Positions 6,955-30,295 of a stretch of 30,295 bases of DNA are shown here, one piece after another. Under the pieces are notes generated by a model. It did no database searches. It was not told where the DNA came from and saw nothing but the letters and a program-made list of their open reading frames with translations. How positions within the stretch are numbered: position 1 is the first letter of the stretch; every line of letters begins with the position of its first letter. The stretch covers positions 1 to 30,295 of the forward strand of contig JBKJSQ010000057.1 in NCBI GenBank assembly GCA_046594495.1, given 5' to 3'. Origin of the DNA: Minisyncoccia bacterium (GTDB lineage: Bacteria > Patescibacteriota > Minisyncoccia > Phycocordibacterales > UBA2100). The translations under genes were made by a program, and so were the position numbers.

Positions 6955-7533
6955 TCAATCCCCTTCTCTTTTTGGCCAGTGCTCGAGCCCAAGATATGCC
7001 ATTTGTACATCCACCACATCAGCGTCCATGCGCAAACACGGCATAAGACGATGCATAGCAGTCGATATGCGCGCGTCTAGCAACAAGCGCATCAGCTCCT
7101 CGCGTGCCGAGAAGCAGATCGTTCCGTCTATAACGTGCGGGTGTGCGCATAGTCGCTGGTCCTCACGCGTTTGCGTGCGACCGACATTCTCGAATTTGAG
7201 TGTTTTTGTGACCGCGAAGTATGTGACGATCAATTCGCCGATGGTTCGCCACGTACCGCGATCGTCGCGCATATGGATACACTCAGTGAGCAGATGTAGA
7301 CGCGAATACTCGAGATTCACTCCAATTTCTACAATTCCCGGAACTGCACACAGTCGACGGAAATCCTCAATTCCCCTGTTGCGCCATTCGTCCGCTGAAT
7401 TATGATTTATGCGCGAACAGAATTCGCCGTAGTCGGCATGGATTTTCGGGATATTCGACGCCACGACCGGTAATTGCTGAGGTGTCCGCTTCTGAAAGGC
7501 ACTGATGCCGTGCTTACGCGTGAGTCCCATCAT
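6955..7533 (-). CDS. Prokaryotic E2 (ubiquitin-conjugating fold)-like protein
   Basis: HPHVIDGTICF resembles the E2 HPN..G.IC catalytic signature; coupled to the E1-like gene; AAGGAG SD. Confidence 0.6.
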   Translation of the reverse strand: MMGLTRKHGISAFQKRTPQQLPVVASNIPKIHADYGEFCSRINHNSADEWRNRGIEDFRRLCAVPGIVEIGVNLEYSRLHLLTECIHMRDDRGTWRTIGELIVTYFAVTKTLKFENVGRTQTREDQRLCAHPHVIDGTICFSAREELMRLLLDARISTAMHRLMPCLRMDADVVDVQMAYLGLEHWPKREGD

Positions 7534-7562
7534 GCACTCCTTCTCTGTATGTCGCTCTAGCG

Positions 7563-7591
7563 ACGATAGACCGCTTGGTCACTGATGTCAA
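7563..7591 (-). promoter_or_regulatory. sigma70 promoter of the E2-E1 operon
   Basis: Minus strand TTGACA (7591-7586), 17 nt spacer, TATCGT (7568-7563). Confidence 0.65.
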
Positions 7592-7995
7592 AGCACTTCG
7601 TCGAGCGCTTCGTTTACGAGTCGGTCAGCCACTTTGTTTTGTTCACGCGGTACGTATTCAAATCGCCACGTTTTGAACTCTTTCAAAAGTACATGAGCTT
7701 TTGCTGCTTGCGGCTTGAGTGTAATTTCTTTTATTTTCCAATTACCCGAGATCTGCTCTACGACGAGTTTGCTGTCCATTCGAACGGTCACATTGCGGCC
7801 GCTCAGGCCGGATTCGACCGCTTTTTCAAGCGCGAGCGAAACCGCTTCATATTCAGCCCAGTTATTCGTTTGACGCTCTCCGAGGTACTTCTTACCCTCA
7901 ATCGCATTGCCATCGACATATATTACGAATCCTGCTGCGGCTGGCCCAGGATTTCCGCGAGCACCACCATCTGTATAAATGACTATTGGTTGCAT
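7588..7995 (-). CDS. rnhA: Ribonuclease HI family protein
   Basis: YTDGGARGNPGPA, TNNWAEYEA, MDSKLVVEQ, NKVADRLVN; start MQPIV 7 nt after TATCAT. Confidence 0.9.
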   Translation of the reverse strand: MQPIVIYTDGGARGNPGPAAAGFVIYVDGNAIEGKKYLGERQTNNWAEYEAVSLALEKAVESGLSGRNVTVRMDSKLVVEQISGNWKIKEITLKPQAAKAHVLLKEFKTWRFEYVPREQNKVADRLVNEALDEVL

Positions 7996-8056
7996 GGTCG
8001 ACATGATACACGAAGAACCCACCGGTATTTCCCGGTGGGTTCTTGCGAATGCTTTC

Positions 8057-8704
8057 TTACGCAGTAACCGGAGCAGCAGATTCCGCGGGCACGACTTCGC
8101 TCGCCTTATGACCAAGTGTTCGATACGCGTATACCATCGCGAGCGACGATACCGGAATCGTGACGAGGAGCGGCACGAGCAAGAGAATCGCACCAACGAT
8201 ATTGATGACCGCTATCGCGAGCACAAACAGGAAGAGTGTCATGCGGTTTCCTTTTGTAATACGCACGCTTTCCTTGAGGGCTTCGATTGGGCTGAGTTTA
8301 CGATCAACGATGATGAATTTTACGAACAAAAGTGCGACTGCAGCAATAATGCCCGGAACGATGAGGAGCACGAGCCCTACGACTACGATGGCAGCAGTCA
8401 AAAGTGTGGCAGCGAGGTATGGCAGGTATTGTTGCGGATGCCAAAGATCCGAAAGTGTTGCACTCTCCGGATTGTCGAAGATCTTCAGCATCGTAGCCAC
8501 CACACCAAGGTCGACGAGCGTTGTGATTGCAAGGTTTAGGAGGCCTCCAATCATGTTGCCCTCTTTACCTATCATCCCGATTACAAATCCCGTCACCCAT
8601 GACACCATGAGAATAATGACCGTCATACCGATAAAAAAACCAGGGCGCTTTTTAAAGGTTTCCCAGCCAAACTTAAACGCCGCTTCTATAGAAAATGTTT
8701 GCAT
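8057..8704 (-). CDS. Conserved membrane protein (DUF975/GDPD-membrane-domain-like)
   Basis: Hydrophobic; LLIVPGII, IEALKESVRITKGN pattern typical of this family. Confidence 0.7.
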   Translation of the reverse strand: MQTFSIEAAFKFGWETFKKRPGFFIGMTVIILMVSWVTGFVIGMIGKEGNMIGGLLNLAITTLVDLGVVATMLKIFDNPESATLSDLWHPQQYLPYLAATLLTAAIVVVGLVLLIVPGIIAAVALLFVKFIIVDRKLSPIEALKESVRITKGNRMTLFLFVLAIAVINIVGAILLLVPLLVTIPVSSLAMVYAYRTLGHKASEVVPAESAAPVTA

Positions 8705-8768
8705 AGCTCAACGCTAGCACGAGAACGGGCGTTTCCTAGTCGTTACAGTGGAGACGACAATGGAACAA

Positions 8769-10448
8769 TCAGGGAAGCATGTCGAGCAAACGAAGCGCGA
8801 GTCCACCGCGGAATGTGTCGCGTTCGATCGTAACAATGGCAGTCGTCGGGGCCTCGAGTGAGGGAACCTGAGTAAAATCATCCGGTCCGCGGAAAAAGTC
8901 GTACGCGCGCTGCTCACAACCGGTTTCGGTGCATGTGAGCGTGACTTCCACATGATTTTTTTCCTTTCCGAATCGCTTCATACTTGTCACCTTGGCCTGG
9001 CTAATGCGTACTTTCGGCTTCGGATTGCCCATGCCAAACGGTGCGAGTTTCGCCATGTCACGAAAGAGCGGCCACGACACCTGTTCGAGCGTCAGTGTCA
9101 TGTCGTGCGAAATAAGCTCTTTCTCCGCAGCACGTTCGAGCGTAGTAGCTGCGCGAGCCATGTCTTCCTGCAGCGTATGCACCTTGTCGGGAACCACGGA
9201 GAATCCCCCCGATGCCGCGTGACCACCGAACTCCTCGAACGAATCTTTGGCTGCAGTAAAAAGTTCCACAACCGAAAGTGAGCCATCGGAGCGGCACGAA
9301 CCTTTGATCGCACCGTTCCCATCGCGCCCCCACAAGCACACCACGCCACCGCGATCATTCATGATTGAGTTTGCAGCGAGACCGAGTAGCGCCGGCTTCC
9401 ATTCCGGATTTCCAAGCACCACCACGTGATCGGATTCAGTGAAGCGCTCTTTTGCCCGTTTCTTAATTTCGCGCACGATCCCCGCGACGACCACCTTTCG
9501 TGTCGCGAACAGTTTTTCAAGATCCGAGGCAATCGCGTCTGCCTCCGCATGGTCTTTTGTAGTAAGCAGTTTGAACGCAAGCAATGGCTCACCCATACGC
9601 GATGCCGCATTGATACGTGGCCCAATGGAGAACCCAATATCTTCTTCGGTGAGCTCTGCTTTTCGTAGTCGAAGCTTTATGCACAGCGCTGTTATTCCCG
9701 GTCGCGGCGATTTGCGCAGTACCTGGAGTCCCCAATGAGCGAGCACCCGATTCTCCCCAATGAGCGGCACCATATCGGCAATAGTTGCAATAGCGACCAA
9801 ATCGAGCAGCCATTTTTCCCACCCGTTAGGAACGCTCAAGTAGCGAGCAATCTCGCGGCGCTTCCCTTCGCGAATTGTTGCCTGCACAAGCTTGAACGCC
9901 ATCGCAGCTCCACAGAGATCAGGAAACGGATATTCACCTCTCTTTGGGTTGAGTATCGCAATAGCTTTGGGTGCATCCCCAATGAGCTCATGGTGGTCGG
10001 TGACAATTACGTCCACGCCGAGCATGTTTGCGTGCGCAACGGCGTCAAACGCATTGGTGCCAACATCAACAGTAATAATGAGCTTTACAGCGTCGCCGGC
10101 GAGCTCAGTTATGGCAGCGGTATGAAATCCGTATCCCTCGCGATCGCGATGCGGAATGTAGATGCGTACATTCTCGTAGCCAATTTTTGCAAAGAAATCA
10201 CTCAATACGGATGCGCCAGGAATGCCGTCGCAATCAAAGTCGGCATACACCGCGATTCGCTCGTTATTCTCGATTGATCTGATCATCCGATCCGTCGCAA
10301 GCGACATGTCGGCGATGAGCTCGGGGGCGTGCGTGTGCGCATCGTAATCAGGTTGCAGAAATACTCGAATTTCGTCTGCAGTTGTCACGCCGCGCCCCTT
10401 GAGGAGTGAGCGTACAACATCGCTCAACTCGATCTCGGCAGTTTGCAT
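8769..10448 (-). CDS. recJ: Single-stranded DNA exonuclease RecJ
   Basis: DHH motifs YADFDCDG, ITVDVG, VTDHH, ATIADMV, GPRINAASR, GGHAASGG and LAPFGMGNP; start MQTAE 7 nt after TACAAT. Confidence 0.93.
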   Translation of the reverse strand: MQTAEIELSDVVRSLLKGRGVTTADEIRVFLQPDYDAHTHAPELIADMSLATDRMIRSIENNERIAVYADFDCDGIPGASVLSDFFAKIGYENVRIYIPHRDREGYGFHTAAITELAGDAVKLIITVDVGTNAFDAVAHANMLGVDVIVTDHHELIGDAPKAIAILNPKRGEYPFPDLCGAAMAFKLVQATIREGKRREIARYLSVPNGWEKWLLDLVAIATIADMVPLIGENRVLAHWGLQVLRKSPRPGITALCIKLRLRKAELTEEDIGFSIGPRINAASRMGEPLLAFKLLTTKDHAEADAIASDLEKLFATRKVVVAGIVREIKKRAKERFTESDHVVVLGNPEWKPALLGLAANSIMNDRGGVVCLWGRDGNGAIKGSCRSDGSLSVVELFTAAKDSFEEFGGHAASGGFSVVPDKVHTLQEDMARAATTLERAAEKELISHDMTLTLEQVSWPLFRDMAKLAPFGMGNPKPKVRISQAKVTSMKRFGKEKNHVEVTLTCTETGCEQRAYDFFRGPDDFTQVPSLEAPTTAIVTIERDTFRGGLALRLLDMLP

Positions 10449-10588
10449 GTGCAGCATTGTATCTCACAACGATAGTTGTTCACCGCGTGGGATAACAAAC
10501 TCCGAGACCACGCAAGCTCAAGTCCTTCGCATGCATCCTGCGCCTCTGCTTTATCGACCTCGGGTATCCAATGGGGTACACTCTCGAC

Positions 10589-11002
10589 ATGAAGGACTGT
10601 GTCTTCTGTAAAATCATTCGCGACGAATTACCCTCGTCCCGTATTTACGAAGACGACAAAGTACTAGCAATCCTCGACATAAATCCGGTTTCTACTGGGC
10701 ATACGCTTGTTATCCCAAAAAACATAAATACACGAAATATTTTTGATGTTCCCCTTGAGGATTGGGCGGCAATGACTGCGGTCGTGCATAAACTCGCATC
10801 TGCAATCGAGCACGCAGTACAAGCAGACGGCATTAATATTCTCATGAACAACCGCGAACATGCGGGGCAAGTAGTAGATCACCCACATATTCATATTGTG
10901 CCGCGATACAAAGGCGATGGACTTCGATTATGGCCGCACGGAAGCTACAAAGACGGACAAGCTGCGGATCTGGTGAAAAAAATACTCGAGGCACTCGGAT
11001 AA
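10589..11002 (+). CDS. HIT family hydrolase
   Basis: DCVFCKI, GHTLVIPK and the HPHIHIVPR histidine triad. Confidence 0.92.
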   Translation: MKDCVFCKIIRDELPSSRIYEDDKVLAILDINPVSTGHTLVIPKNINTRNIFDVPLEDWAAMTAVVHKLASAIEHAVQADGINILMNNREHAGQVVDHPHIHIVPRYKGDGLRLWPHGSYKDGQAADLVKKILEALG

Positions 11003-11032
11003 ACAAACGGCGCCTTTCGGCGCCGTTTGTTT
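11001..11032. terminator. Bidirectional terminator
   Basis: aaacaaacggcgcc-tttc-ggcgccgtttgttt between convergent genes. Confidence 0.85.
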
Positions 11033-12632
11033 AATTATCTGCGGTCGTACACGCACCTTCGTGAACAAAATCTGCGTTCGAGTTATTCATTTGGCAACGG
11101 TTGGAATATGTTTGCGCCTGATGCATTTGGCACATGAGTGCACACATCATTCCTGGCGGGCATGTATTTACACAGCCCTGTGGACGGCCACACACTGGTG
11201 CATAGTCGGCTGTGCACGCCGTTTGTGACACCTGCACTGTTGCGGTTGATCGTGCTTCTTTACCTTCGCTATCCGTGACCGTAAGCGCCACGGTGTAGGT
11301 GCGGGCAGTCGAGTACGAGTGCGTAAACGAAGTGTCCTGCTGGATACTCGCCTGCGGCGCCATTGCACGCATCGAGCTATCAGTGGTCGGCCACTCGTCG
11401 CCCCACACGATCGAATATTTGAGCGTCCCGTTTTCCGGATCGGTTGCCGTGATTTTCCATGTACCGATTTCGTTTACGGTAAGTGATACTGGTCCTGAGA
11501 AGGTGGAGATTACCGGCGGCTTGTTCGTCGACGTATCGTCAAAGTATGCGGTGCAGTAGGGCTTCGTCATGCTCTCTGGGGTACATGCCCGGAGCGTGCA
11601 GTACGCGGGACCACCGTTTTCTGAGCGGCCACACGAATTGCAGCCGTCACTCCATGATTTGCACATCGGATTGCTTTCAGGATTGGCTGTCGTATCTTTA
11701 CACTCTCCGTTGTAGAGGAAGGACGCGCCGTCGGCTTTCATGGTGCATAGATTGCCATAGGTCGTAGGCACTGGATTACATGGCGTCGTAATGCACACGA
11801 CCGGCTTTCCTCCGCAGACAGGATTGTATTCTCTCGTGCATGCGATAGGGGCATCTCCAACTATGACGCGTTCAGTCGCAAGCGTCGTTTCTTTGCAGCC
11901 GCCGATGCACATGCCTCCCGCTTTTACGATAGAAACCGTATATGATCCGTTTTTACCATAGGTGTGGCTGAACGATACTGGGTTTACACAGCGGGATGGA
12001 TAGATCTCTTGCGGCGAAACTTGGCAATGGACCCACTGTCGTTCTGAACCGTCGCCGAAATCAATGAGTGTGTCCTGACCATCAGCCATGCTTGGGCGAT
12101 AATCGGAGGCGTCGCCAGTCTTTACAGTTACAGTGACGGTAAGCGGCGCACTACCTTTTTGAGGAGACACATTCAGAAGCGAATTACCGCTGTTGGTGCA
12201 CCACATTTTTATGCGCTCGCGCGAAAGAGGGCCAAAAGCCCCGATAGCAGATACACCATTGTTTGACTGCCACTTTGCGACTGCCTGCGCTGTTGCAGGA
12301 CCGAAGTAGCCTGTTGCTGATGCTCTCAAAAATCCCTCTGTTGAAAGATATTCTTGAAGACCGCGGACATCATCACCAGTGTGTCCACGCGAAAGGTTTC
12401 TATTGAGGAGTGTGCAAATGCGAACCGGTTTAACCTCGCTCCAGGCGCTGACCGTCTGCGCTGAAGATGATGAGGTCGTCTGCTGCTTCATCTGCAATTG
12501 CAGCGATGCCACTTTGGCGAGTAAGTCTTTGATCTGTGATTGCAGATCTTCTATTGAAAGTGCCGAGGTGGCAAAAGGCGCCACGAATGCGACCGCGATA
12601 ATAATGCCGGCTACGAGTGATTTGGTATTCAT
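11031..12632 (-). CDS. Secreted protein: peptidoglycan-binding domain, two PKD-like domains, two Kazal-like and one pacifastin-like Cys domains
   Basis: Signal peptide, coiled coil, PG-binding (LSRGHTGDDVRGLQEYL...GYFGPATAQAVAKWQ), PKD (IDFGDG...HTY; WGDE...HSY), CTREYNPVCG..TYGNLC, CTADYAPVCG..TYSNRC, CNSC..CTLRAC. Confidence 0.8.
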   Translation of the reverse strand: MNTKSLVAGIIIAVAFVAPFATSALSIEDLQSQIKDLLAKVASLQLQMKQQTTSSSSAQTVSAWSEVKPVRICTLLNRNLSRGHTGDDVRGLQEYLSTEGFLRASATGYFGPATAQAVAKWQSNNGVSAIGAFGPLSRERIKMWCTNSGNSLLNVSPQKGSAPLTVTVTVKTGDASDYRPSMADGQDTLIDFGDGSERQWVHCQVSPQEIYPSRCVNPVSFSHTYGKNGSYTVSIVKAGGMCIGGCKETTLATERVIVGDAPIACTREYNPVCGGKPVVCITTPCNPVPTTYGNLCTMKADGASFLYNGECKDTTANPESNPMCKSWSDGCNSCGRSENGGPAYCTLRACTPESMTKPYCTAYFDDTSTNKPPVISTFSGPVSLTVNEIGTWKITATDPENGTLKYSIVWGDEWPTTDSSMRAMAPQASIQQDTSFTHSYSTARTYTVALTVTDSEGKEARSTATVQVSQTACTADYAPVCGRPQGCVNTCPPGMMCALMCQMHQAQTYSNRCQMNNSNADFVHEGACTTADN

Positions 12633-25373: not shown

Positions 25374-26522
25374 ATGAATACTGAAAGCAAAAAGGCTGCC
25401 CACTCATTTTTAAATGTGAATATAACCCGCGATTCTGAGCGCTGGGAAACGGAAATTCGCGCGGAAATTCCGGTCGAGGTGCTCACCAAGTACCGCGGAG
25501 TCGCACTCAAGGAGATGCAAAAGACCGCAAAGCTCGATGGCTTCCGTCCCGGCAAGGCACCCGAGGACCGAATTCTCGCAGTCTATGGGGAATCACAGGT
25601 ATTGCGCCGTGCAGTTGAGCACGCAATCGAGAATGAGCTCCCGCTCTTACTCGCATCTGAGAAGCTCCCTATTGTGGAAGCCCCACGAGTAACGACCGAC
25701 ACACCAACGCTCGATAAGCCGGTCACCTTTACCGCACGTGCCGCACTCGCTCCAGAAATTGCACTCGGTGACTACAAATCCGTTGCCAAGAAGCACACTG
25801 ATATCAAGGAAGATACGAGCGTCTCTGACGCTGAGCACACCGAGGCACTCACTCATTTGCGTCGCGAACGTGCGCGCATCGATCGCATCGAGTCTGGCAC
25901 AGAACCGCAAAAGGCAGCTGAGGAAACGAAGGCGCTTGCGGAAACCGACCTTCCAGAGCTCGACGACACGTTCGTGCAGACGCTCGGCTACGAGAACACT
26001 ACTGCGTTCACGACCGCACTTCGCAATAACATCCAAACCGAAAAAGAGATGCGCGCGAGCGAAAAGCGCCGCGCTGGTATCCTCGACGACATGGTGAAGG
26101 GCTCTAAGATATCCTACCCTGTTTCACTTCGCGCATTTGAACTCGACGAAATGGAGGCGCGCTTGAAGGACGACCTCTCGCGCATTGGCCAAACGATCGA
26201 GCAATACCTTGCAGAAACAAAGAAGACTCGTGAAGAGCTCCTTGCAAGCTGGAAGGATGCCGCAGATAAGCGCGCAAAAGTACGTCTTATTCTTTCAGAG
26301 ATTGCACGACAAGAAAATATAAATCCACCAGCTGCGGAGCTAGAACATGAACTCGAGCACGCGCGAGAGCACTATCCAAAAGCGGATCCCGAAAATCTCC
26401 GCGCACACATTTCGCACGCGATGCGTAACGAAATGACACTGCGCTTCCTCGAAGGAAATCCAGAGCCGGTCGGCCACACCGCTTCGAGTCACGGAGGGCA
26501 AGCCGCCCACGCTCACAAATAA
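25374..26522 (+). CDS. tig: Trigger factor lacking the FKBP/PPIase domain
   Basis: Ribosome-binding signature LDGFRPGKAP, then a short linker directly into LPELDD and the C-terminal domain; 382 aa. Confidence 0.9.
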   Translation: MNTESKKAAHSFLNVNITRDSERWETEIRAEIPVEVLTKYRGVALKEMQKTAKLDGFRPGKAPEDRILAVYGESQVLRRAVEHAIENELPLLLASEKLPIVEAPRVTTDTPTLDKPVTFTARAALAPEIALGDYKSVAKKHTDIKEDTSVSDAEHTEALTHLRRERARIDRIESGTEPQKAAEETKALAETDLPELDDTFVQTLGYENTTAFTTALRNNIQTEKEMRASEKRRAGILDDMVKGSKISYPVSLRAFELDEMEARLKDDLSRIGQTIEQYLAETKKTREELLASWKDAADKRAKVRLILSEIARQENINPPAAELEHELEHAREHYPKADPENLRAHISHAMRNEMTLRFLEGNPEPVGHTASSHGGQAAHAHK

Positions 26523-26549
26523 GAAAAGGCCCTCACGTACCATTCCTGA

Positions 26550-26673
26550 AATCCAAGGGTAACCCTTGGATTGAGCTCTAGGGTGACCTCACTTAGCGAG
26601 GGTTCCCCTCGCTATAACTCGACCAAAGTGCGCCGAAGGGCGATCTTTGCTGTTTCCAAGGGTAGTCCTTGGA
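26550..26673. repeat. Cluster of three REP-like palindromes (AGG-N5-CCT core)
   Basis: aatccaaggg-taa-cccttggatt (26550-26572), tagcgaggg-ttc-ccctcgcta (26594-26614), tccaaggg-tag-tccttgga (26655-26673). Confidence 0.65.
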
Positions 26674-26688
26674 GTAGTCACAAATAAC

Positions 26689-26714
26689 AAAACGGCACCT
26701 CGCGGTGCCGTTTT
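26689..26714. terminator. Bidirectional terminator
   Basis: aaaacggcacc-tcgc-ggtgccgtttt. Confidence 0.85.
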
Positions 26715-26736
26715 CGGTGTGCAGACACATGCGGTG

Positions 26737-27000
26737 TCAGCTTCGTTGTTTCGGCTCATAGTTTAAAAGCGCAAACGTAGTGCCCTGCCCTTTCGTTATT
26801 GCGATATGGGGGTCATCGCCATAGGCCGACGGATCACGAACGGTATGAGGCGACTCTTGTGGCGGAACGAAGGCTACCAGTCCCATATCGCCGGCAGCGA
26901 TGATGGTTGGAAGCATTTCGGCACCAAGATGAACCGGCTCTGCCGTGTCCAACAGTCGCACGAGTTCCGTGACTTGCCTGCTCGCAGTGTACGTACTCAT
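26737..27000 (-). CDS. Hypothetical protein
   Basis: TTGACA-17-CATAAT promoter (27056-27028), GGAGA SD before MSTYTAS, terminator downstream; alternative start at 27012. Confidence 0.6.
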   Translation of the reverse strand: MSTYTASRQVTELVRLLDTAEPVHLGAEMLPTIIAAGDMGLVAFVPPQESPHTVRDPSAYGDDPHIAITKGQGTTFALLNYEPKQRS

Positions 27001-27058
27001 ATCGTTCTCCATGAGTTTCCGTAAAGAATTATGTGGAGCCTGAGTACGCGTGTCAAGC

Positions 27059-27352
27059 CTAGTGCACTGTTTCCGGACCGGACTCGCCGTGCTTGGACAG
27101 CATCTCTTTATAAAAAAGTTCGATTACCTCATCGTCGCTCAACGACACCGACTCCCCGACATGCGCGTCGACTACTTTTCGCCAATCGGCTGCGTGCTCG
27201 CGAACCCAGTCCATCATAATCTCATTGCGCCCTGCGCTCACGCCCGGGTGTTCAATCTTAAACGCATGTTCGGCAACACGCGCCTGTATTTTACCGTGTT
27301 CAATAGGCAACTCTATTGGTGCATCAATACGATGCATGCGCTCCATATTCAT
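27059..27352 (-). CDS. Hypothetical protein
   Basis: ATG 7 nt after TATACT (leaderless pattern of the core genes); 97 aa. Confidence 0.6.
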   Translation of the reverse strand: MNMERMHRIDAPIELPIEHGKIQARVAEHAFKIEHPGVSAGRNEIMMDWVREHAADWRKVVDAHVGESVSLSDDEVIELFYKEMLSKHGESGPETVH

Positions 27353-27375
27353 GCGTTCAGTATACAAAATAAAAA

Positions 27376-27552
27376 CTACTCCAATTGATAATGGGAGTAG
27401 TTATAGTAGTGTCCGCCGCCATAATCAGAAGAGTCGTACGAGGCGCCGGTGGAGACAACCGACTGTTTCTTATACGCAACGCTGATGTTGAAGTCCCCGA
27501 CCATGTACAGGGCGAGCACAACTCCGACGAGGAACGAGATCACATGGGTCAT
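27376..27552 (-). CDS. Array cargo: 58-aa membrane-anchored peptide with a Tyr/Ser/Gly-rich tail
   Basis: AAGGAGG SD right after repeat R7; MTHVISFLVGVVLALYMVG...SDYGGGHYYNYSHYQLE. Confidence 0.6.
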   Translation of the reverse strand: MTHVISFLVGVVLALYMVGDFNISVAYKKQSVVSTGASYDSSDYGGGHYYNYSHYQLE

Positions 27553-27745
27553 AGGCACCTCCTTTATCAATTCGGGAACCATTCCTGAACTGAACAAAAG
27601 CCTCGATATTACGCGTCGAGGAGGCGCGTCCCTTGCGGGTGTGCTTTTTCCGGTTGCGCACAACGCGCAAACGGTAACGGTTGTCGGCAAGCGAACGCGC
27701 GGATTCGCTTCGGCGCTTCGGCGCGGGACCGGTGATCTGTTTCAT
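27470..27745 (-). CDS. Array cargo: ArfA-like basic protein; ORF reads through a terminator hairpin and repeat R7
   Basis: GAGGAGG SD after R6; SLADNRYRLRVVRNRKKHTRKGR resembles the ArfA LxDPxFRxRVxxxKK..xRK core but lacks GKGS. Confidence 0.45.
   Translation of the reverse strand: MKQITGPAPKRRSESARSLADNRYRLRVVRNRKKHTRKGRASSTRNIEAFVQFRNGSRIDKGGAYDPCDLVPRRSCARPVHGRGLQHQRCV
27567..27593 (-). repeat. Array hairpin repeat R7
   Basis: Minus strand tcagttcaggaa-tgg-ttcccgaattga. Confidence 0.8.
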
Positions 27746-27762
27746 ATAACATACCTCCTCTA

Positions 27763-27790
27763 TCAACCCGCGAACCATTTCGCGGACTGA
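27763..27790 (-). repeat. Array hairpin repeat R6
   Basis: Minus strand tcagtccgcgaa-atgg-ttcgcgggttga. Confidence 0.9.
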
Positions 27791-28218
27791 AAAGAATGGA
27801 CGATGACGCTCGTCCGGACGGATAGTAATCGGGATATCAGCCCACGCGTCAATACGCGCTGTCGACGACAAAGTCGCCGAATGAACGGCCGCTGTGGCCG
27901 CTCACATCTTCTACCGGGAGGCCCTCTATCTCCCGACAGTAGTACTTGCCGCTGCCCGGTCCGGAGGATTACTGTCCGCGCTCCAAGCTCCTTCGCTTGT
28001 CGCACGAGTGCAGCAACTTCCGGTTGCAGGCCGCGATCGCAGCAGCCGTCTTGGCAACAGTACGGCAGGCGCCGACCATTGCTGAAGCGGAGCCCGTACC
28101 GGCTCGACGAACGCTTCAGGATGTGGACGGTCTTCGCGACCACGATCGCCGTCGTGCGATCCGCAGTCAGAATGACTGCGCCGGCGGTCGAGGCGGTAGC
28201 GAAGTGAGTGTCGGTCAT
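27763..28218 (-). CDS. Array cargo: hypothetical protein with a CCQDGCC cysteine cluster; stop codon lies inside R6
   Basis: GGAGGG SD before MTDTHF; 151 aa; the C-terminal third crosses hairpin-rich sequence. Confidence 0.5.
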   Translation of the reverse strand: MTDTHFATASTAGAVILTADRTTAIVVAKTVHILKRSSSRYGLRFSNGRRLPYCCQDGCCDRGLQPEVAALVRQAKELGARTVILRTGQRQVLLSGDRGPPGRRCERPQRPFIRRLCRRQRVLTRGLISRLLSVRTSVIVHSFQSAKWFAG

Positions 28219-28262
28219 GTGGTGCCCTCCAAGAGCGATGCGCAGAATTGCGCAGAATTTTA

Positions 28263-28289
28263 TCAACCCGCGAATCATTCACGAGCTGA
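28263..28289 (-). repeat. Array hairpin repeat R5
   Basis: Minus strand tcagctcgtgaa-tga-ttcgcgggttga. Confidence 0.85.
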
Positions 28290-28323
28290 ATAAATAGGAC
28301 GAGCCGTGGCTCGTCCTGTTTGA

Positions 28324-28548
28324 TCATAAGCGGTCGAGTTCTCGCAAGGCGTCGTTGGTTTCATCTTGCCCGAAGACACGATTACTTTCTTCAACAGCCT
28401 CGCTCCACTCATCGCACTTATCATCGTATGTATAGCTCTCCGATATATACAACCAATCTTCGTAAGCCTTTTCTTGTTGTTCTTCTAAGACTGCGCGAAG
28501 AAAACTGATTGCACTATAGTTTCGCTCTACAAGGTACTTGATATCCAT
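28324..28548 (-). CDS. Array cargo: acidic 74-aa protein
   Basis: AGAGGA SD before MDIKYL; followed by a strong hairpin (28296-28317) and R5. Confidence 0.6.
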   Translation of the reverse strand: MDIKYLVERNYSAISFLRAVLEEQQEKAYEDWLYISESYTYDDKCDEWSEAVEESNRVFGQDETNDALRELDRL

Positions 28549-28620
28549 TTGTAATCCTCTGTTAGTTGCCTTCGCCACCATGATCGGATTACAAACGCGA
28601 GCAGCTCACTCCCTTTTCGA

Positions 28621-28648
28621 TCAACCCGCGAACGATTTCACGGACTGA
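28621..28648 (-). repeat. Array hairpin repeat R4
   Basis: Minus strand tcagtccgtgaa-atcg-ttcgcgggttga. Confidence 0.9.
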
Positions 28649-28698
28649 AAGGAATGGACGATGGCGCTCGTACGCACGGAGAATGCTTTCACATCCGC

Positions 28699-29289
28699 TC
28701 ACATCTCAGTGAGCAGTACTGTTGTAGGTGATATGAGTGTCGGCATCGACAACACCGGTGTCGACATACACCGCTGCTGCGAAGAGCAGTCCGCACGCCA
28801 CAGCAACACCGACGACGACACCTGCCGAAAAGAGCACAATTCTACGCATATATTTCTCCTTAAAACTCTATCAACCCGCGAACGATTTCGCGGACTGAAA
28901 AGAACGGGCGAATGGTGTTCACCCTTAGAAAGTACTTCCACGAAACCGGTGTGCCGAAACACCATGGTCTTTTTGGTAGACCCGTCCGGCTGCGACACTT
29001 CAGTGCTTTCACGTTTGGAAAACGCGTAGAGCACTTTGATGTTCGCCCGCACAAGCGCGACTTCGAGGGGCGCCATGAAATACGGTGCGCCACCGATCAT
29101 TGCAGCGCCGCAACCAGACTCCCGCGCAATGTCAGCGAGCTTAGCGGCGCGCTGAGCAAGCAGGCCGGTGCTCGGGAGCTCGTCAAACGTCAGATACATC
29201 TGGACGAGCGACTTCTTGTCGGTCTCAACCACGCCGACGGCGAGCTGATCCGCAGTCGCTTCGTGTTGAGTCAGATTCAAGATACGCAT
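28699..29289 (-). CDS. Array cargo: Csx20-like protein (about 120-aa core) with a read-through tail across R3
   Basis: ILNLTQHEATADQ...AMIGGAPYFM...LYAFSKRES..QPDGSTKKTMVFRHTGFVEV; GAGG SD after R2. Confidence 0.55.
   Translation of the reverse strand: MRILNLTQHEATADQLAVGVVETDKKSLVQMYLTFDELPSTGLLAQRAAKLADIARESGCGAAMIGGAPYFMAPLEVALVRANIKVLYAFSKRESTEVSQPDGSTKKTMVFRHTGFVEVLSKGEHHSPVLFSPRNRSRVDRVLRRNICVELCSFRQVSSSVLLWRADCSSQQRCMSTPVLSMPTLISPTTVLLTEM
28706..28849 (-). CDS. Array cargo: 47-aa single-TM peptide
   Basis: Manually translated MRRIVLFSAGVVVGVAVACGLLFAAAVYVDTGVVDADTHITYNSTAH; AAGGAGA SD right after R3. Confidence 0.6.
   Translation of the reverse strand: MRRIVLFSAGVVVGVAVACGLLFAAAVYVDTGVVDADTHITYNSTAH
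28871..28898 (-). repeat. Array hairpin repeat R3
   Basis: Minus strand tcagtccgcgaa-atcg-ttcgcgggttga. Confidence 0.9.
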
Positions 29290-29531
29290 GTGTGTATTCC
29301 TCGCTCTATCAATTCGCGAACCATTTCGCGGACTGAAGAAAGCGGGGAAGATTGGTCTTCCCCGGAATATTCGCTTGCCTCACGGCGGCGATCGGCTTTT
29401 GCACGATCGGCACGGAGGTTCTCAAGCTGGACGAAGAACTCACCCCGCGCATTGCGCTCACTGAGTACGCGCAGCGCTACGCTGTAGCCACTCTGCGCGA
29501 ACATAAGTGCGACGTGCTTGCGTGTCATCAT
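29277..29531 (-). CDS. Array cargo: hypothetical protein reading through R2
   Basis: GAGGG SD right after R1; no stop before the hairpin at 29343-29364. Confidence 0.5.
   Translation of the reverse strand: MMTRKHVALMFAQSGYSVALRVLSERNARGEFFVQLENLRADRAKADRRREASEYSGEDQSSPLSSVREMVRELIERGIHTCVS
29309..29336 (-). repeat. Array hairpin repeat R2
   Basis: Minus strand tcagtccgcgaa-atgg-ttcgcgaattga. Confidence 0.9.
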
Positions 29532-29547
29532 GTGGCATCCCTCATCT

Positions 29548-29575
29548 TCAATCCACGAACTATTTCATGGGCTGA
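29548..29575 (-). repeat. Array hairpin repeat R1
   Basis: Minus strand tcagcccatgaa-atag-ttcgtggattga. Confidence 0.85.
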
Positions 29576-29694
29576 AGAAAGGTGCGGAGTAAGGCTCCGC
29601 ACAACCTATGGTGATGTTCAGCATCTGGCCGTAATAAAACGGCAAGATTGAGAACTTCTGTTGCCAAGCGACACCACATCGCTCCGTTGCCATG

Positions 29695-29895
29695 TTAATG
29701 GAGACGGTATCCGTCGAGAGAACGCTCAAGAAACGCGAGCGCTTCGTCAGGATAACCGGACTTCTCCATGTACAAGGCGAATGCCAGGATGTCATCGTCT
29801 GACACGCTCCGACGGGGGCACTTCAGTGCAACAAACCCCCGAACGAAATCATGTGTTCCGATGACACGCCCGTCGATAGAAATAACCTGCCTCAT
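29695..29895 (-). CDS. First gene of the array region, hypothetical 66-aa protein
   Basis: GGAGGGG SD before MRQVISIDG. Confidence 0.55.
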   Translation of the reverse strand: MRQVISIDGRVIGTHDFVRGFVALKCPRRSVSDDDILAFALYMEKSGYPDEALAFLERSLDGYRLH

Positions 29896-29919
29896 GTAGT
29901 CCCCCTCCGTGAAGTTGAT

Positions 29920-30295
29920 GAAAGAACGCGAGTGCACTCATGTACACACGAAACGAAATCGCGAGAGCTGTTTGACTGATGATGCGGTCTAGAACCCGTA
30001 CCCACCTTTCAAACTTCGGGGCTGGACATCCCCATGGCGCTCTCTTCCACACTCACACCGTATCTCGCGCCGAGACACAATATGAGATTACGAAGAACGG
30101 CGTGCGCGGTAAGCATTTCGCTGACCGCCCTACCGTCCTTTTTTCTGCATCCACAGCCTTTCGGACCTGTGGAAACGAAAAGGTAGTCGTTGGCTACCCC
30201 TGACCCGGCAACGGCATGCGCCGCCCCGAGTAACCTCTTTGGAATCCGAAGATTCCTTCGCTAGCGGTAATCGCCCCAGAGTTAACCACCAAAAG
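29920..30295 (-). ncRNA. Highly structured non-coding region or long leader RNA, continuing beyond the window
   Basis: Several stems with UUCG/GAAA loops and G-U pairs that form only on the minus strand; no convincing ORF. Confidence 0.5.

What the first reader, a model, noticed from the sequence alone, without database searches (positions are those of the whole stretch)
28699..29289. Stand-alone Csx20-like protein, a possible cyclic-oligoadenylate ring nuclease outside any CRISPR locus
Seen: N-terminal NLTQHxATxxQ, central MIGGAPYFM and C-terminal LYAFSKRESxExxQPDGSxKKTxVFRHxGF. From my recollection this pattern parallels Csx20 of type III CRISPR loci (SHxLTxxQ...IQG...PVYxTTKR...DGxxxKxSxFxHxxF), a family linked to ring-nuclease activity. 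No cas genes are in the window. Inference: an anti-defence (signal-degrading) cargo, which would make the array a counter-defence or host-manipulation island.
Basis: partly seen in the sequence, partly recalled or inferred. Interest (0 to 1): 0.62.

Follow-up and report, generated by a model that had tools for sequence, protein, structure and literature searches.

The report
Orphan Csx20-family ring-nuclease-like gene
A small gene in a tiny-genome (CPR, Saccharibacteria-like) bacterium is a genuine but diverged relative of Csx20, the CRISPR enzyme that destroys the cyclic-oligoadenylate alarm signal. It sits in a genome with no such CRISPR system, so it is a plausible but untested signal-degrading enzyme of a kind already suspected in phages.

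Summary
The motifs are real. ORF 28699-29289 (-) starts with a 119-residue domain of Pfam PF27247 (MJ1673/Csx20). The last 77 codons are read-through of an intergenic repeat and of the next small gene.

**Homology.** Profile-profile comparison with bona fide Csx20 gives 96.5% probability (E 9.5e-10, 115 columns). Csx20's invariant His, Gln, Tyr, Arg, Phe and His are kept; its QGDFG loop is IGGAP here. The NCBIfam Csx20 model scores 26.8 bits against a cut-off of 70, so this is a sister clade, not Csx20 proper.

**The clade.**
- It is large: 1771 representatives.
- It is frequent in phages and prophage-like runs.
- One member is fused to a WYL regulator inside a type III operon.
- It is rare in CPR: none of 300 other sampled phylum genomes has it.

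**Protein features.** Predicted homodimer. dN/dS is 0.07-0.15.

**Context.** No Cas10 or Cas1 in this 95%-complete genome, and no Cas10 in 18 other CPR carriers. A CBASS elsewhere in the genome shows no association.

**Verdict.** Most likely a metal-independent cA4-type ring nuclease or binder, carried as accessory cargo of a variable small-gene operon. The "counter-defence island" reading is not supported. It is a new member of a known kind. This scan had already noted the surrounding array.

The parts
28933..29289 (-). Conserved MJ1673/Csx20-family domain (codons 1-119: beta1-NLTQH loop, MIGGAPYFM helix start, long beta-hairpin with YAFSKRES and FRHxGF).
   Evidence: Homologues end at about this point. 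Precomputed PF27247. hhalign to Csx20 96.5%. AF2 model pLDDT 95. dN/dS 0.07-0.15 against close relatives.
28699..28932 (-). Read-through tail (codons 120-196 plus stop). It has no homologues. It translates the intergenic repeat and overlaps the next gene out of frame.
   Evidence: Alignment with relatives shows that a length difference in the variable hairpin puts this copy in the one frame of the repeat that has no stop. Relatives stop inside or just after the conserved hairpin.
29298..29302 (-). Shine-Dalgarno GAGGA, 8 nt upstream of the ATG at 29289.
   Evidence: Read from the sequence.
29314..29363 (-). Upstream repeat unit: variable GC hairpin (29344-29363), a T-rich stretch, and the conserved hairpin CCGCGAA-ATGG-TTCGCGA (29314-29331), followed by ATTGATAGAG.
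28866..28924 (-). Downstream repeat unit lying inside the ORF tail: variable hairpin GGGTGAA-CACCA-TTCGCCC (28906-28924), GTTCTTTTC, conserved hairpin CCGCGAA-ATCG-TTCGCGG (28876-28893), and GTTGATAGAG (28866-28875).
28706..28849 (-). Next cassette gene: a 47-aa hydrophobic peptide with its own AAGGAG Shine-Dalgarno (28856-28861). The tail of the Csx20-like ORF overlaps it in another frame.

Best explanation
Codons 1-119 encode a small alpha/beta protein of the MJ1673/Csx20 family (Pfam PF27247). It belongs to a diverged sister clade of CRISPR-associated Csx20, marked by the motifs NLTQH, MIGGAPYFM and YAFSKRES.

Most likely it forms a symmetric homodimer with a CARF-like pocket on the two-fold axis. 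That pocket would bind a cyclic oligoadenylate (cA4-type) and cleave it without metal, by 2'-OH attack, to linear products ending in a 2',3'-cyclic phosphate, as shown for Csx20. His9 would be the key catalytic residue, with Arg93 and His113 holding the phosphates.

**Shown here:** homology, conservation of the candidate residues, purifying selection, and a predicted fold and dimer.

**Inferred:** the ligand, the chemistry, and the role.

In this genome the gene is an accessory cargo gene. It is the third ORF of a repeat-punctuated, variable small-gene operon that lies downstream of a TrmB-like regulator and a long leader. It is not part of a CRISPR locus. What signal it meets in this cell is unknown, because the genome has no Cas10.
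For: **Family membership**
- PF27247 is precomputed on this protein, on all its homologues, and on proteins that NCBI names Csx20.
- hhalign of the clade alignment A3 against the Csx20 alignment A4: probability 96.5%, E 9.5e-10, 115 columns.
- The Csx20 model NF040559 hits other clade members over their full length, at 36-39 bits.

**Residues.** Csx20's invariant H7, Q13, G75, Y93, R98, F116 and H118 align with H9, Q15, G67, Y88, R93, F111 and H113.

**Fold**
- The order of secondary-structure elements is the same as in a bona fide Csx20 model.
- The ESM Atlas structural search matches a Csx20-type domain of a 740-aa Bacillota protein family at TM 0.71.
- CARF and SAVED cOA sensors recur among the PDB matches: Cam1 Z 6.5 (rmsd 2.9, 102 aligned), Csm6 Z 6.0, SAVED Z 5.4-5.9.

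**Dimer**
- Complex prediction score 0.74, best of 3 controls 0.00. That mark was reached by 20 of 30 proteins solved as pairs of one chain and by 1 of 23 solved as single chains. Runs agree in at least 85% of contacts, and partner pLDDT is at least 88.
- Many natural tandem duplicates exist.
- In most of them only one half keeps His9 while the other has F, W or I, and R93 and H113 mostly stay in both halves. This is the pattern expected if His9 is catalytic and one active site is enough.

**Link to cOA signalling**
- A clade member 52% identical to this protein is fused to a WYL-WCX regulator inside a type III operon (Cas10 palm domain and RAMPs upstream).
- 8-9 of 22 non-CPR carrier genomes encode Cas10.
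- Csx20 itself cleaves cA4 in EDTA buffer (PMC12409355).

**The gene is alive.** dN/dS is 0.07-0.15.
Against: - No biochemical data exist for any member of this clade.
- The Csx20 QGDFG loop, which lies at the predicted dimer axis, is replaced by a shorter IGGAP, so the ligand may differ.
- Direct structural similarity to CARF ring nucleases is weaker than for real Csx20: Sso2081 Z 4.6 and Sis0455 Z 4.8 here, against 7.1 and 7.0 for the Csx20 control model. Generic Rossmann-like folds score as high (aspartate racemase Z 6.6).
- The genome has no Cas10 or Cas1, and 0 of 18 other CPR carriers have Cas10, so there is no known cA4 source in the cell.
- The ORF lacks a stop before a terminator-like hairpin. 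The product therefore either carries a 77-residue junk tail or comes from a non-stop mRNA.
Confidence: 0.55

Rival explanations
1. The gene is anti-defence cargo, an Acr-like ring nuclease in the manner of AcrIII-1, and the whole array is a counter-defence or host-manipulation island of a mobile element.
For: - The clade is common in viruses. The nearest ESM Atlas clusters are 67-82% viral among members with a record.
- Phage RM378 gp002 is 45% identical, and Pasteurella phage Pm86 carries a copy followed by an RHH gene.
- A 2026 preprint reports csx20 homologues in Aca14-regulated anti-defence operons and suggests counter-defence (10.64898/2026.07.27.740549).
- Many non-CPR loci look like prophage runs of small same-strand ORFs.
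- The order of cassettes is shuffled between relatives.
Against: - The array occupies a conserved chromosomal slot in related CPR genomes, next to TrmB and a leader and between clpP-rny and tig-ppa-nusA.
- No integrase, phage or other anti-defence gene is present. The other eight array ORFs tested have no PHROG hit, and the six of them scanned against Pfam have no Pfam hit.
- The neighbours include an ArfA-like gene.
- A free cell without Cas10 has nothing of its own to counter.
Confidence: 0.15
2. The protein binds a nucleotide but does not cleave it. It would be a sponge or sensor, or it would act on a ligand other than cA4, such as cA3, a CBASS product, or a 2',3'-cyclic phosphate RNA end.
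For: - The loop at the dimer axis differs from Csx20.
- The WYL-fused relative looks like a ligand sensor of a regulator.
- The related Csx15 showed almost no ring-nuclease activity and was proposed as a possible sponge (PMC12409355).
- The genome does encode a CBASS cyclase.
Against: - The His, Arg and His residues shared with active Csx20 are kept under strong purifying selection.
- The loss of His9 in only one half of most pseudo-dimers fits catalysis better than binding.
- CBASS does not co-occur with the gene: 0 of 10 other CPR carriers have a SMODS cyclase, against 14 of 300 other genomes in the phylum sample.
Confidence: 0.2
3. This copy is a decaying or non-expressed remnant, because it has lost its stop codon.
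For: There is no in-frame stop for 77 codons after the domain. The ORF crosses a terminator-like hairpin and overlaps the next gene.
Against: - The domain is intact, with every family-conserved residue present.
- It has a good Shine-Dalgarno sequence.
- dN/dS is 0.07-0.15.
- Relatives also place their stops beyond the variable hairpin, inside or after the conserved hairpin, so running into the repeat is normal for this cassette.
Confidence: 0.08

Closest known systems
Csx20 (NCBIfam NF040559; type III CRISPR-associated cA4 ring nuclease, PMC12409355)
   Same: - Same Pfam family, PF27247.
- Full-length profile-profile match (96.5%).
- Same size and same order of secondary-structure elements.
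- Shared His (beta1 loop), Gln, Tyr-x-x-x-x-Arg and Phe-x-His motifs.
- Predicted dimer.
   Different: - About 16% identity.
- Scores 26.8 bits against a cut-off of 70.
- The QGDFG loop is replaced by IGGAP, three residues shorter.
- It is not in a CRISPR locus, and there is no Cas10 in the genome.
- Weaker structural match to Crn1-type CARF proteins.
Phage-borne 'csx20 homologs' of Aca14 (RHH)-regulated anti-defence operons (bioRxiv 10.64898/2026.07.27.740549); Rhodothermus phage RM378 gp002
   Same: Same clade. The Pm86 copy carries MVGGAPFF...YAFSQRE...FKHAGW and is followed by an RHH gene. RM378 gp002 is 45% identical.
   Different: Those genes sit in phages or prophages, some with an Aca regulator. 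This one sits in a chromosomal small-gene operon of a CPR bacterium. None has been assayed.
AcrIII-1 / Crn2 (DUF1874) viral ring nuclease
   Same: The proposed job is the same: a stand-alone small dimeric enzyme that destroys cA4 outside a CRISPR locus.
   Different: The fold and family are unrelated. No Pfam hit to DUF1874 was found.
Crn1 (Sso2081, Sis0455) CARF ring nucleases
   Same: Rossmann-like CARF-type fold, dimer, metal-independent chemistry (inferred).
   Different: Only Z 4.6-4.8 to this model. No sequence similarity.

Membership tests
Csx20 sensu stricto (NCBIfam NF040559, equivalog) | Score at or above the curated cut-off of 70 bits over the whole model | tested here: not met
   26.8 bits, residues 80-117 only. 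A true Csx20 from Thermoanaerobacter scores 157 bits.
Csx20 sensu stricto (NCBIfam NF040559, equivalog) | Encoded in or beside a type III CRISPR-Cas locus | tested here: not met
   No Cas10 (Csm1 or Cmr2) and no Cas1 in the 95.5%-complete genome. No cas genes in the window.
Csx20 sensu stricto (NCBIfam NF040559, equivalog) | Invariant residues H7, Q13, Q71-G72-x-F74-G75, Y93, R98, F116, H118 | tested here: inconclusive
   H, Q, G75, Y, R, F and H are kept. The QGDFG loop is replaced by IGGAP.
Csx20 sensu stricto (NCBIfam NF040559, equivalog) | cA4 ring-nuclease activity | not testable with these tools
   This needs biochemistry. It has been shown only for Csx20 proper (PMC12409355).
Pfam PF27247 (MJ1673 family, which contains Csx20) | Match to the family model | tested here: met
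   The precomputed PF27247.1 hit is listed for this protein and all its homologues. The model is absent from the local Pfam copy. Independent support comes from hhalign to Csx20, 96.5%, and from Atlas clusters named MJ1673 at cosine 0.95 and TM 0.85-0.87.
CARF superfamily (ligand-sensing Rossmann-like dimers) | CARF fold similarity to solved members | tested here: inconclusive
   Cam1 Z 6.5, Csm6 Z 6.0, Cad1 Z 5.0, Sis0455 Z 4.8, Sso2081 Z 4.6. Generic Rossmann folds score the same. The control Csx20 model gives Z 7.0-7.2 to CARF proteins.
CARF superfamily (ligand-sensing Rossmann-like dimers) | Homodimer | tested here: met
   This is a prediction only. Score 0.74 against a best control of 0.00 (mark reached by 20 of 30 solved homo-pairs and 1 of 23 single chains). 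Natural tandem duplicates also exist.
Integron gene cassette | An attC site (R''-L''...L'-R' forming a single imperfect hairpin) and an integron integrase | tested here: not met
   The repeat is a variable hairpin followed by a separate conserved 7-bp hairpin, with no RYYYAAC/GTTRRRY pair. There is no integrase in the window or flanking the array in the syntenic relative, whose called genes are listed.
AcrIII-1/Crn2 (DUF1874) | Match to DUF1874 | tested here: not met
   No Pfam family matches at E<=1.

The most novel reading that the evidence does not exclude
In CPR bacteria that have no Cas10, this Csx20-like clade is not an anti-CRISPR. Instead it would be an orphan nucleotide-signal hydrolase recruited into a leader-driven, repeat-punctuated operon alongside an ArfA-like rescue factor. 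It would act on a signal other than CRISPR cA4, or on cOA made by the host bacterium on which the episymbiont lives. Its output might be gated by the missing stop codon, through a non-stop mRNA and trans-translation.
Probability: 0.12. Interest if true: 0.65.

Novelty: new member of a known kind. Interest (0 to 1): 0.4.

Why it matters
Ring nucleases decide whether a cyclic-oligoadenylate alarm ends in recovery or cell death, and viruses steal them to switch the alarm off. This gene belongs to a very large, unassayed sister clade of Csx20: at least 1771 clusters at 50% identity, many of them viral. The curated Csx20 model misses this clade.

If the clade is active, stand-alone Csx20-type enzymes would be a much more common anti-type-III tool than the four phage cases counted so far. 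Their presence in CPR bacteria without any Cas10 would then raise the question of what signal they meet there.

The gene offers a compact 119-residue test case, with clear point mutants to try: H9, R93 and H113.

Tried and rejected
- **Searches that gave nothing.**
  - Local Pfam scan: no hit, because PF27247 is not in that copy.
  - PHROGs: nothing useful.
  - PDB by sequence and by profile: nothing.
  - Foldseek against PDB: no match at E<=0.001.
  - Rfam on 26400-30295: only chance-level hits, so the repeat is not a catalogued RNA.
- **attC or integron reading of the repeat: rejected.** The architecture is wrong and there is no integrase.
- **Strict pattern search for the repeat elsewhere in the genome.** Copies were found only in this contig.
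- **Regulator of the genome's own CBASS: rejected as a general link.** 0 of 10 other CPR carriers have a SMODS cyclase, against 14 of the 300 other genomes in the phylum sample.
- **Fusion partners of long homologues.** They were uninformative in Pfam: DUF4116 and weak hits.
- **Contig for the Caudoviricetes homologue P0115.** It was withheld.
- **Makarova 2020 CARF paper.** Not held in the library.
- **Papers linking ring nucleases to Patescibacteria.** None found.
- **Matched base rate for Cas10 among non-carrier genomes.** None was run, so the 8-9 of 22 figure is only suggestive.

Full report
**Observation**

The minus-strand ORF 28699-29289 encodes 196 residues. These are family signatures, not chance. 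The word-indexed search found 129 homologues. The exhaustive search found 1771 cluster representatives at E<=1e-3, 1325 of them at E<=1e-10. In an alignment of 67 homologues, T7, Q8, H9, G67, A68, L75 and F111 are invariant. N5, Q15, M64, G66, P69, Y88, S91, R93, K107 and H113 are at least 90% conserved.

**Gene limits**

Homologues are 118-130 aa and end at GFVE(A/V), which is residue 119 here. In the window there is no stop at that point. The frame continues through a repeat unit (28862-28930) and then, out of frame, over a 47-aa hydrophobic ORF that has its own AAGGAG-ATG (28706-28849).

An alignment with the closest relatives shows why. The variable hairpin just after the domain differs in length, which puts this copy in the one frame of the repeat that has no stop. 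Relatives stop inside the loop of the conserved hairpin (TAG), in its 3' arm (TGA), or just after it. Running into the repeat is therefore normal for this cassette. Only the 77-codon length of the tail is peculiar to this copy.

The domain itself is under strong purifying selection: dN/dS is 0.07-0.15 against relatives that are 78-79% identical, although dS is near saturation.

**What the protein is**

The local Pfam copy gives nothing. The precomputed Pfam family on this protein and on every homologue is PF27247, named MJ1673. MJ1673 is the small protein associated with type III-A loci in Methanococcales (PMC3973734).

Three Csx20 models give weak hits:

- NCBIfam NF040559: 26.8 bits, E 5e-6, residues 80-117, against a cut-off of 70.
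- PADLOC Csx20: E 3e-6 and 4e-4.
- A PADLOC CARF-HEPN-Csx20 fusion model, aligned over residues 3-117.

To test homology properly I took a bona fide Csx20 from a Thermoanaerobacter genome. It scores 157 bits on NF040559 and is followed by a 433-aa gene whose sequence ends in an RNDINH motif, which looks HEPN-like by eye (not scanned). I collected its family, several members of which NCBI names Csx20 and all of which carry PF27247, aligned 35 members, and compared the two profiles. The result was probability 96.5%, E 9.5e-10, over 115 columns, that is, full length.

Csx20's invariant H7, Q13, G75, Y93, R98, F116 and H118 align with H9, Q15, G67, Y88, R93, F111 and H113. The Csx20 loop QGDFG is replaced by a shorter IGGAP. 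Other members of the window's clade hit the Csx20 model over their full length at 36-39 bits.

The protein is therefore a member of the MJ1673/Csx20 family, in a sister clade, and not an equivalog of Csx20.

**Structure**

AlphaFold2 with the 67-sequence alignment gives pLDDT 95 and pTM 0.83. The elements in order are E3-5, H13-17, H26-33, H41-58, E62-65, H69-81, then a long beta-hairpin E85-99/E105-118. A control model of true Csx20 has the same elements in the same order.

Foldseek against PDB has no hit at E<=0.001; its weak list includes cA4-bound Cam1 and the ring nuclease Sso2081. The VIA-align results were:

| Target | This model (Z) | Csx20 control model (Z) |
|---|---|---|
| Cam1 CARF | 6.5 (rmsd 2.9, 102 aligned) | 5.7 |
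| Csm6 CARF | 6.0 | 6.3 |
| Cad1 CARF | 5.0 | 7.2 |
| SAVED domains | 5.4-5.9 | 5.8 (Cap5) |
| Sis0455 | 4.8 | 7.0 |
| Sso2081 | 4.6 | 7.1 |
| Aspartate racemase (generic Rossmann-like) | 6.6 | not among the 50 rows listed |

For this model; for the control. The control model's top 19 rows are all CARF or SAVED proteins. The window's clade therefore lies in the CARF/SAVED neighbourhood but further from Crn1 than Csx20 does. On its own the fold evidence is inconclusive.

The ESM Atlas structural search returns MJ1673 clusters at TM 0.85-0.87. It also returns a 740-aa Bacillota family carrying PF27247 plus 'MJ1674_2nd', at TM 0.71.

**Dimer and active site**

Complex prediction with two copies plus two AMP scored 0.74, with the best of 3 controls at 0.00. 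That mark was reached by 20 of 30 proteins solved as pairs of one chain and by 1 of 23 solved as single chains. The runs agree in at least 85% of contacts, and partner pLDDT is at least 88. This supports a symmetric dimer but does not prove one. The interface uses residues 35-44, 65-76 (the IGGAPYFM helix), 88-92 and 114-120.

Nature has made the same dimer covalent many times. Numerous homologues are tandem duplicates with two full-length copies. In 12 of the 14 checked, only one copy keeps His9 while the other has F, W or I. S91/T is kept in every copy, and R93 and H113 in most copies of both halves. I read this as a sign that His9 is catalytic and that one active site suffices. This is inference.

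Csx20 cleaves cA4 in 5 mM EDTA to products with 2',3'-cyclic phosphates (PMC12409355). Metal-independent chemistry is therefore the default expectation here.

**Context in this genome**

The window is a whole 30.3-kb contig of a 1.14-Mb, 95.5%-complete genome.

- Positions 1-26522 are housekeeping genes: pgk, recJ, comEC, pilB/pilC, nusA, ppa, tig.
- From about 26700 to the contig end lies a row of small minus-strand ORFs. They are separated by seven copies of a unit made of a covarying GC hairpin, a T-rich stretch, a conserved hairpin CCGCGAA-n4-TTCGCGG, GTTGATAGAG and a Shine-Dalgarno sequence.
- A strict pattern search finds the conserved hairpin-GTTGA core (four copies) nowhere else in the genome, it has no Rfam match, and it is not an attC site.

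The closest long relatives are Candidatus Saccharibacteria MAGs with the same synteny: clpP-rny...TrmB-like...leader...small genes including the homologue...tig-ppa-nusA. One search shows this gene order, and extend it to further relatives. They carry the same repeat.

In the window's own genome, contig C68 carries the TrmB-like gene. Its end matches the relative's leader region, so C68 probably abuts the window's right end.

The order of cassettes differs between relatives. The homologue is followed by an ArfA-like gene in two of them, by the homologue of the window's upstream 84-aa ORF in a third, and by the 47-aa peptide gene here.

The other eight array ORFs tested have no PHROG hit, and the six of them scanned against Pfam have no Pfam hit. 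No integrase or phage gene flanks the array.

**Distribution and link to signalling**

- In one-genome-per-species contigs, the motif M[IV]GGAP[YF][FL]M finds 57 loci. About 25 are in Patescibacteria. The rest are scattered over many phyla, often in runs of small same-strand ORFs that look like prophage early regions.
- In an even sample of 300 other genomes of the phylum, none has the gene. It is rare accessory cargo there.
- The nearest Atlas clusters are mostly viral.
- Among cultured phages, RM378 gp002 is 45% identical. Pasteurella phage Pm86 carries a copy followed by an RHH gene. That matches the csx20-aca14 operons of a 2026 preprint (10.64898/2026.07.27.740549), which suggests, without an assay, a counter-defence role.
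- No Cas10 or Cas1 is found in the window's genome, and 0 of 18 other CPR carriers have Cas10.
- In contrast, 8-9 of 22 non-CPR carriers encode Cas10. I ran no matched control. For scale, 536 loci with a cA4 effector were counted in 38,742 complete genomes (PMC12409355).
- In a Synergistaceae MAG, a clade member 52% identical to this protein is the C-terminal domain of a WYL-WCX regulator. That regulator is encoded at the end of a type III operon, with a Cas10 palm domain and RAMPs upstream. This ties the clade itself, and not only Csx20 proper, to cOA signalling.
- The window's genome does carry a type I CBASS (cyclase plus 4TM effector) on another contig, beside a serine recombinase and a Rep gene. 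SMODS cyclases do not co-occur with the gene: 0 of 10 carriers, against 14 of the 300 other genomes in the phylum sample.

**Verdict**

The best-supported mechanism is a homodimeric, metal-independent cA4-type ring nuclease or, at the least, a cOA binder (confidence about 0.55). Its role in this Cas10-less CPR cell is unknown.

The 'counter-defence island' reading is not supported by the context. It remains a minority possibility, because the clade is common in phages.

The family is known: it is in Pfam, Csx20 has been assayed, and phage homologues have been noted. This is therefore a new member of a known kind. The open points of moderate interest are:

- a very large clade that has never been assayed;
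- orphan copies in CPR bacteria;
- the one-His pattern in pseudo-dimers;
- the missing stop codon.

The array, its terminator-like hairpins, the ArfA-like gene and the leader had been noted earlier in this scan. I re-checked only the parts that touch this gene.

Noticed in passing
own genome contig C59 = L078:7102-11628: A type I CBASS: an oligonucleotide cyclase (9918-10799, PADLOC E 1.5e-101, Pfam SMODS) plus a 4TM effector (10720-11628, E 1.2e-26). It lies beside a large serine recombinase (7102-8670) and a Rep ORF2/G2P gene (8613-9341). This looks like a defence system on an integrated element in a 1.1-Mb CPR genome.
   Followed up: partly
L030:8645-10387 (Synergistaceae UBA5560, DIMS01000003.1): A 580-aa protein with WYL and WCX domains and a C-terminal domain of the window's Csx20-like clade. 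It is encoded at the end of a type III operon (Cas10 palm2 and RAMPs upstream). It is a candidate cOA-sensing or cOA-degrading transcription regulator.
   Followed up: partly
proteins P0121, P0122, P0124, P0127, P0128, P0130, P0137, P0146, P0152 (tandem forms): These natural pseudo-dimers of the clade keep Ser91 (or Thr) in both halves and, with a few exceptions (P0127, P0128), Arg93 and His113 too. They keep His9 in only one half; the other half has Phe, Trp or Ile.
   Followed up: partly
window 27545-29631, minus strand: There are seven repeat units: a variable covarying hairpin, a T-run, a conserved hairpin CCGCGAA-n4-TTCGCGG, then GTTGATAGAG and a Shine-Dalgarno sequence. The same unit occurs in Saccharibacteria relatives (L002, L009, L017, L019) with compensatory changes in the conserved stem. 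It is not attC-like and has no Rfam match. The 9-6-9 inverted symmetry of the conserved part would also suit a tyrosine-recombinase core site; this was not tested.
   Followed up: partly
own genome C68:7492-8921 and window 29596-30295: C68 carries the TrmB-like regulator. Its 3' end matches the leader region of the syntenic relative L002, so C68 probably joins the window's right end. The assembly broke inside the leader.
   Followed up: partly
window 28912-29487 (+): A 191-aa ORF lies antisense to the Csx20-like gene. A similar antisense ORF recurs over homologues in 11 other loci. It is a shadow of the conserved gene, not a gene.
   Followed up: partly
window 29277-29531 (-) and L076:933-1154: An 84-aa ORF (MMTRKHVALMF...) lies upstream of the Csx20-like gene here. 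Its homologue lies downstream of the Csx20-like gene in a relative. Its tail also reads into the repeat. This is evidence that cassettes are reshuffled between genomes.
   Followed up: no
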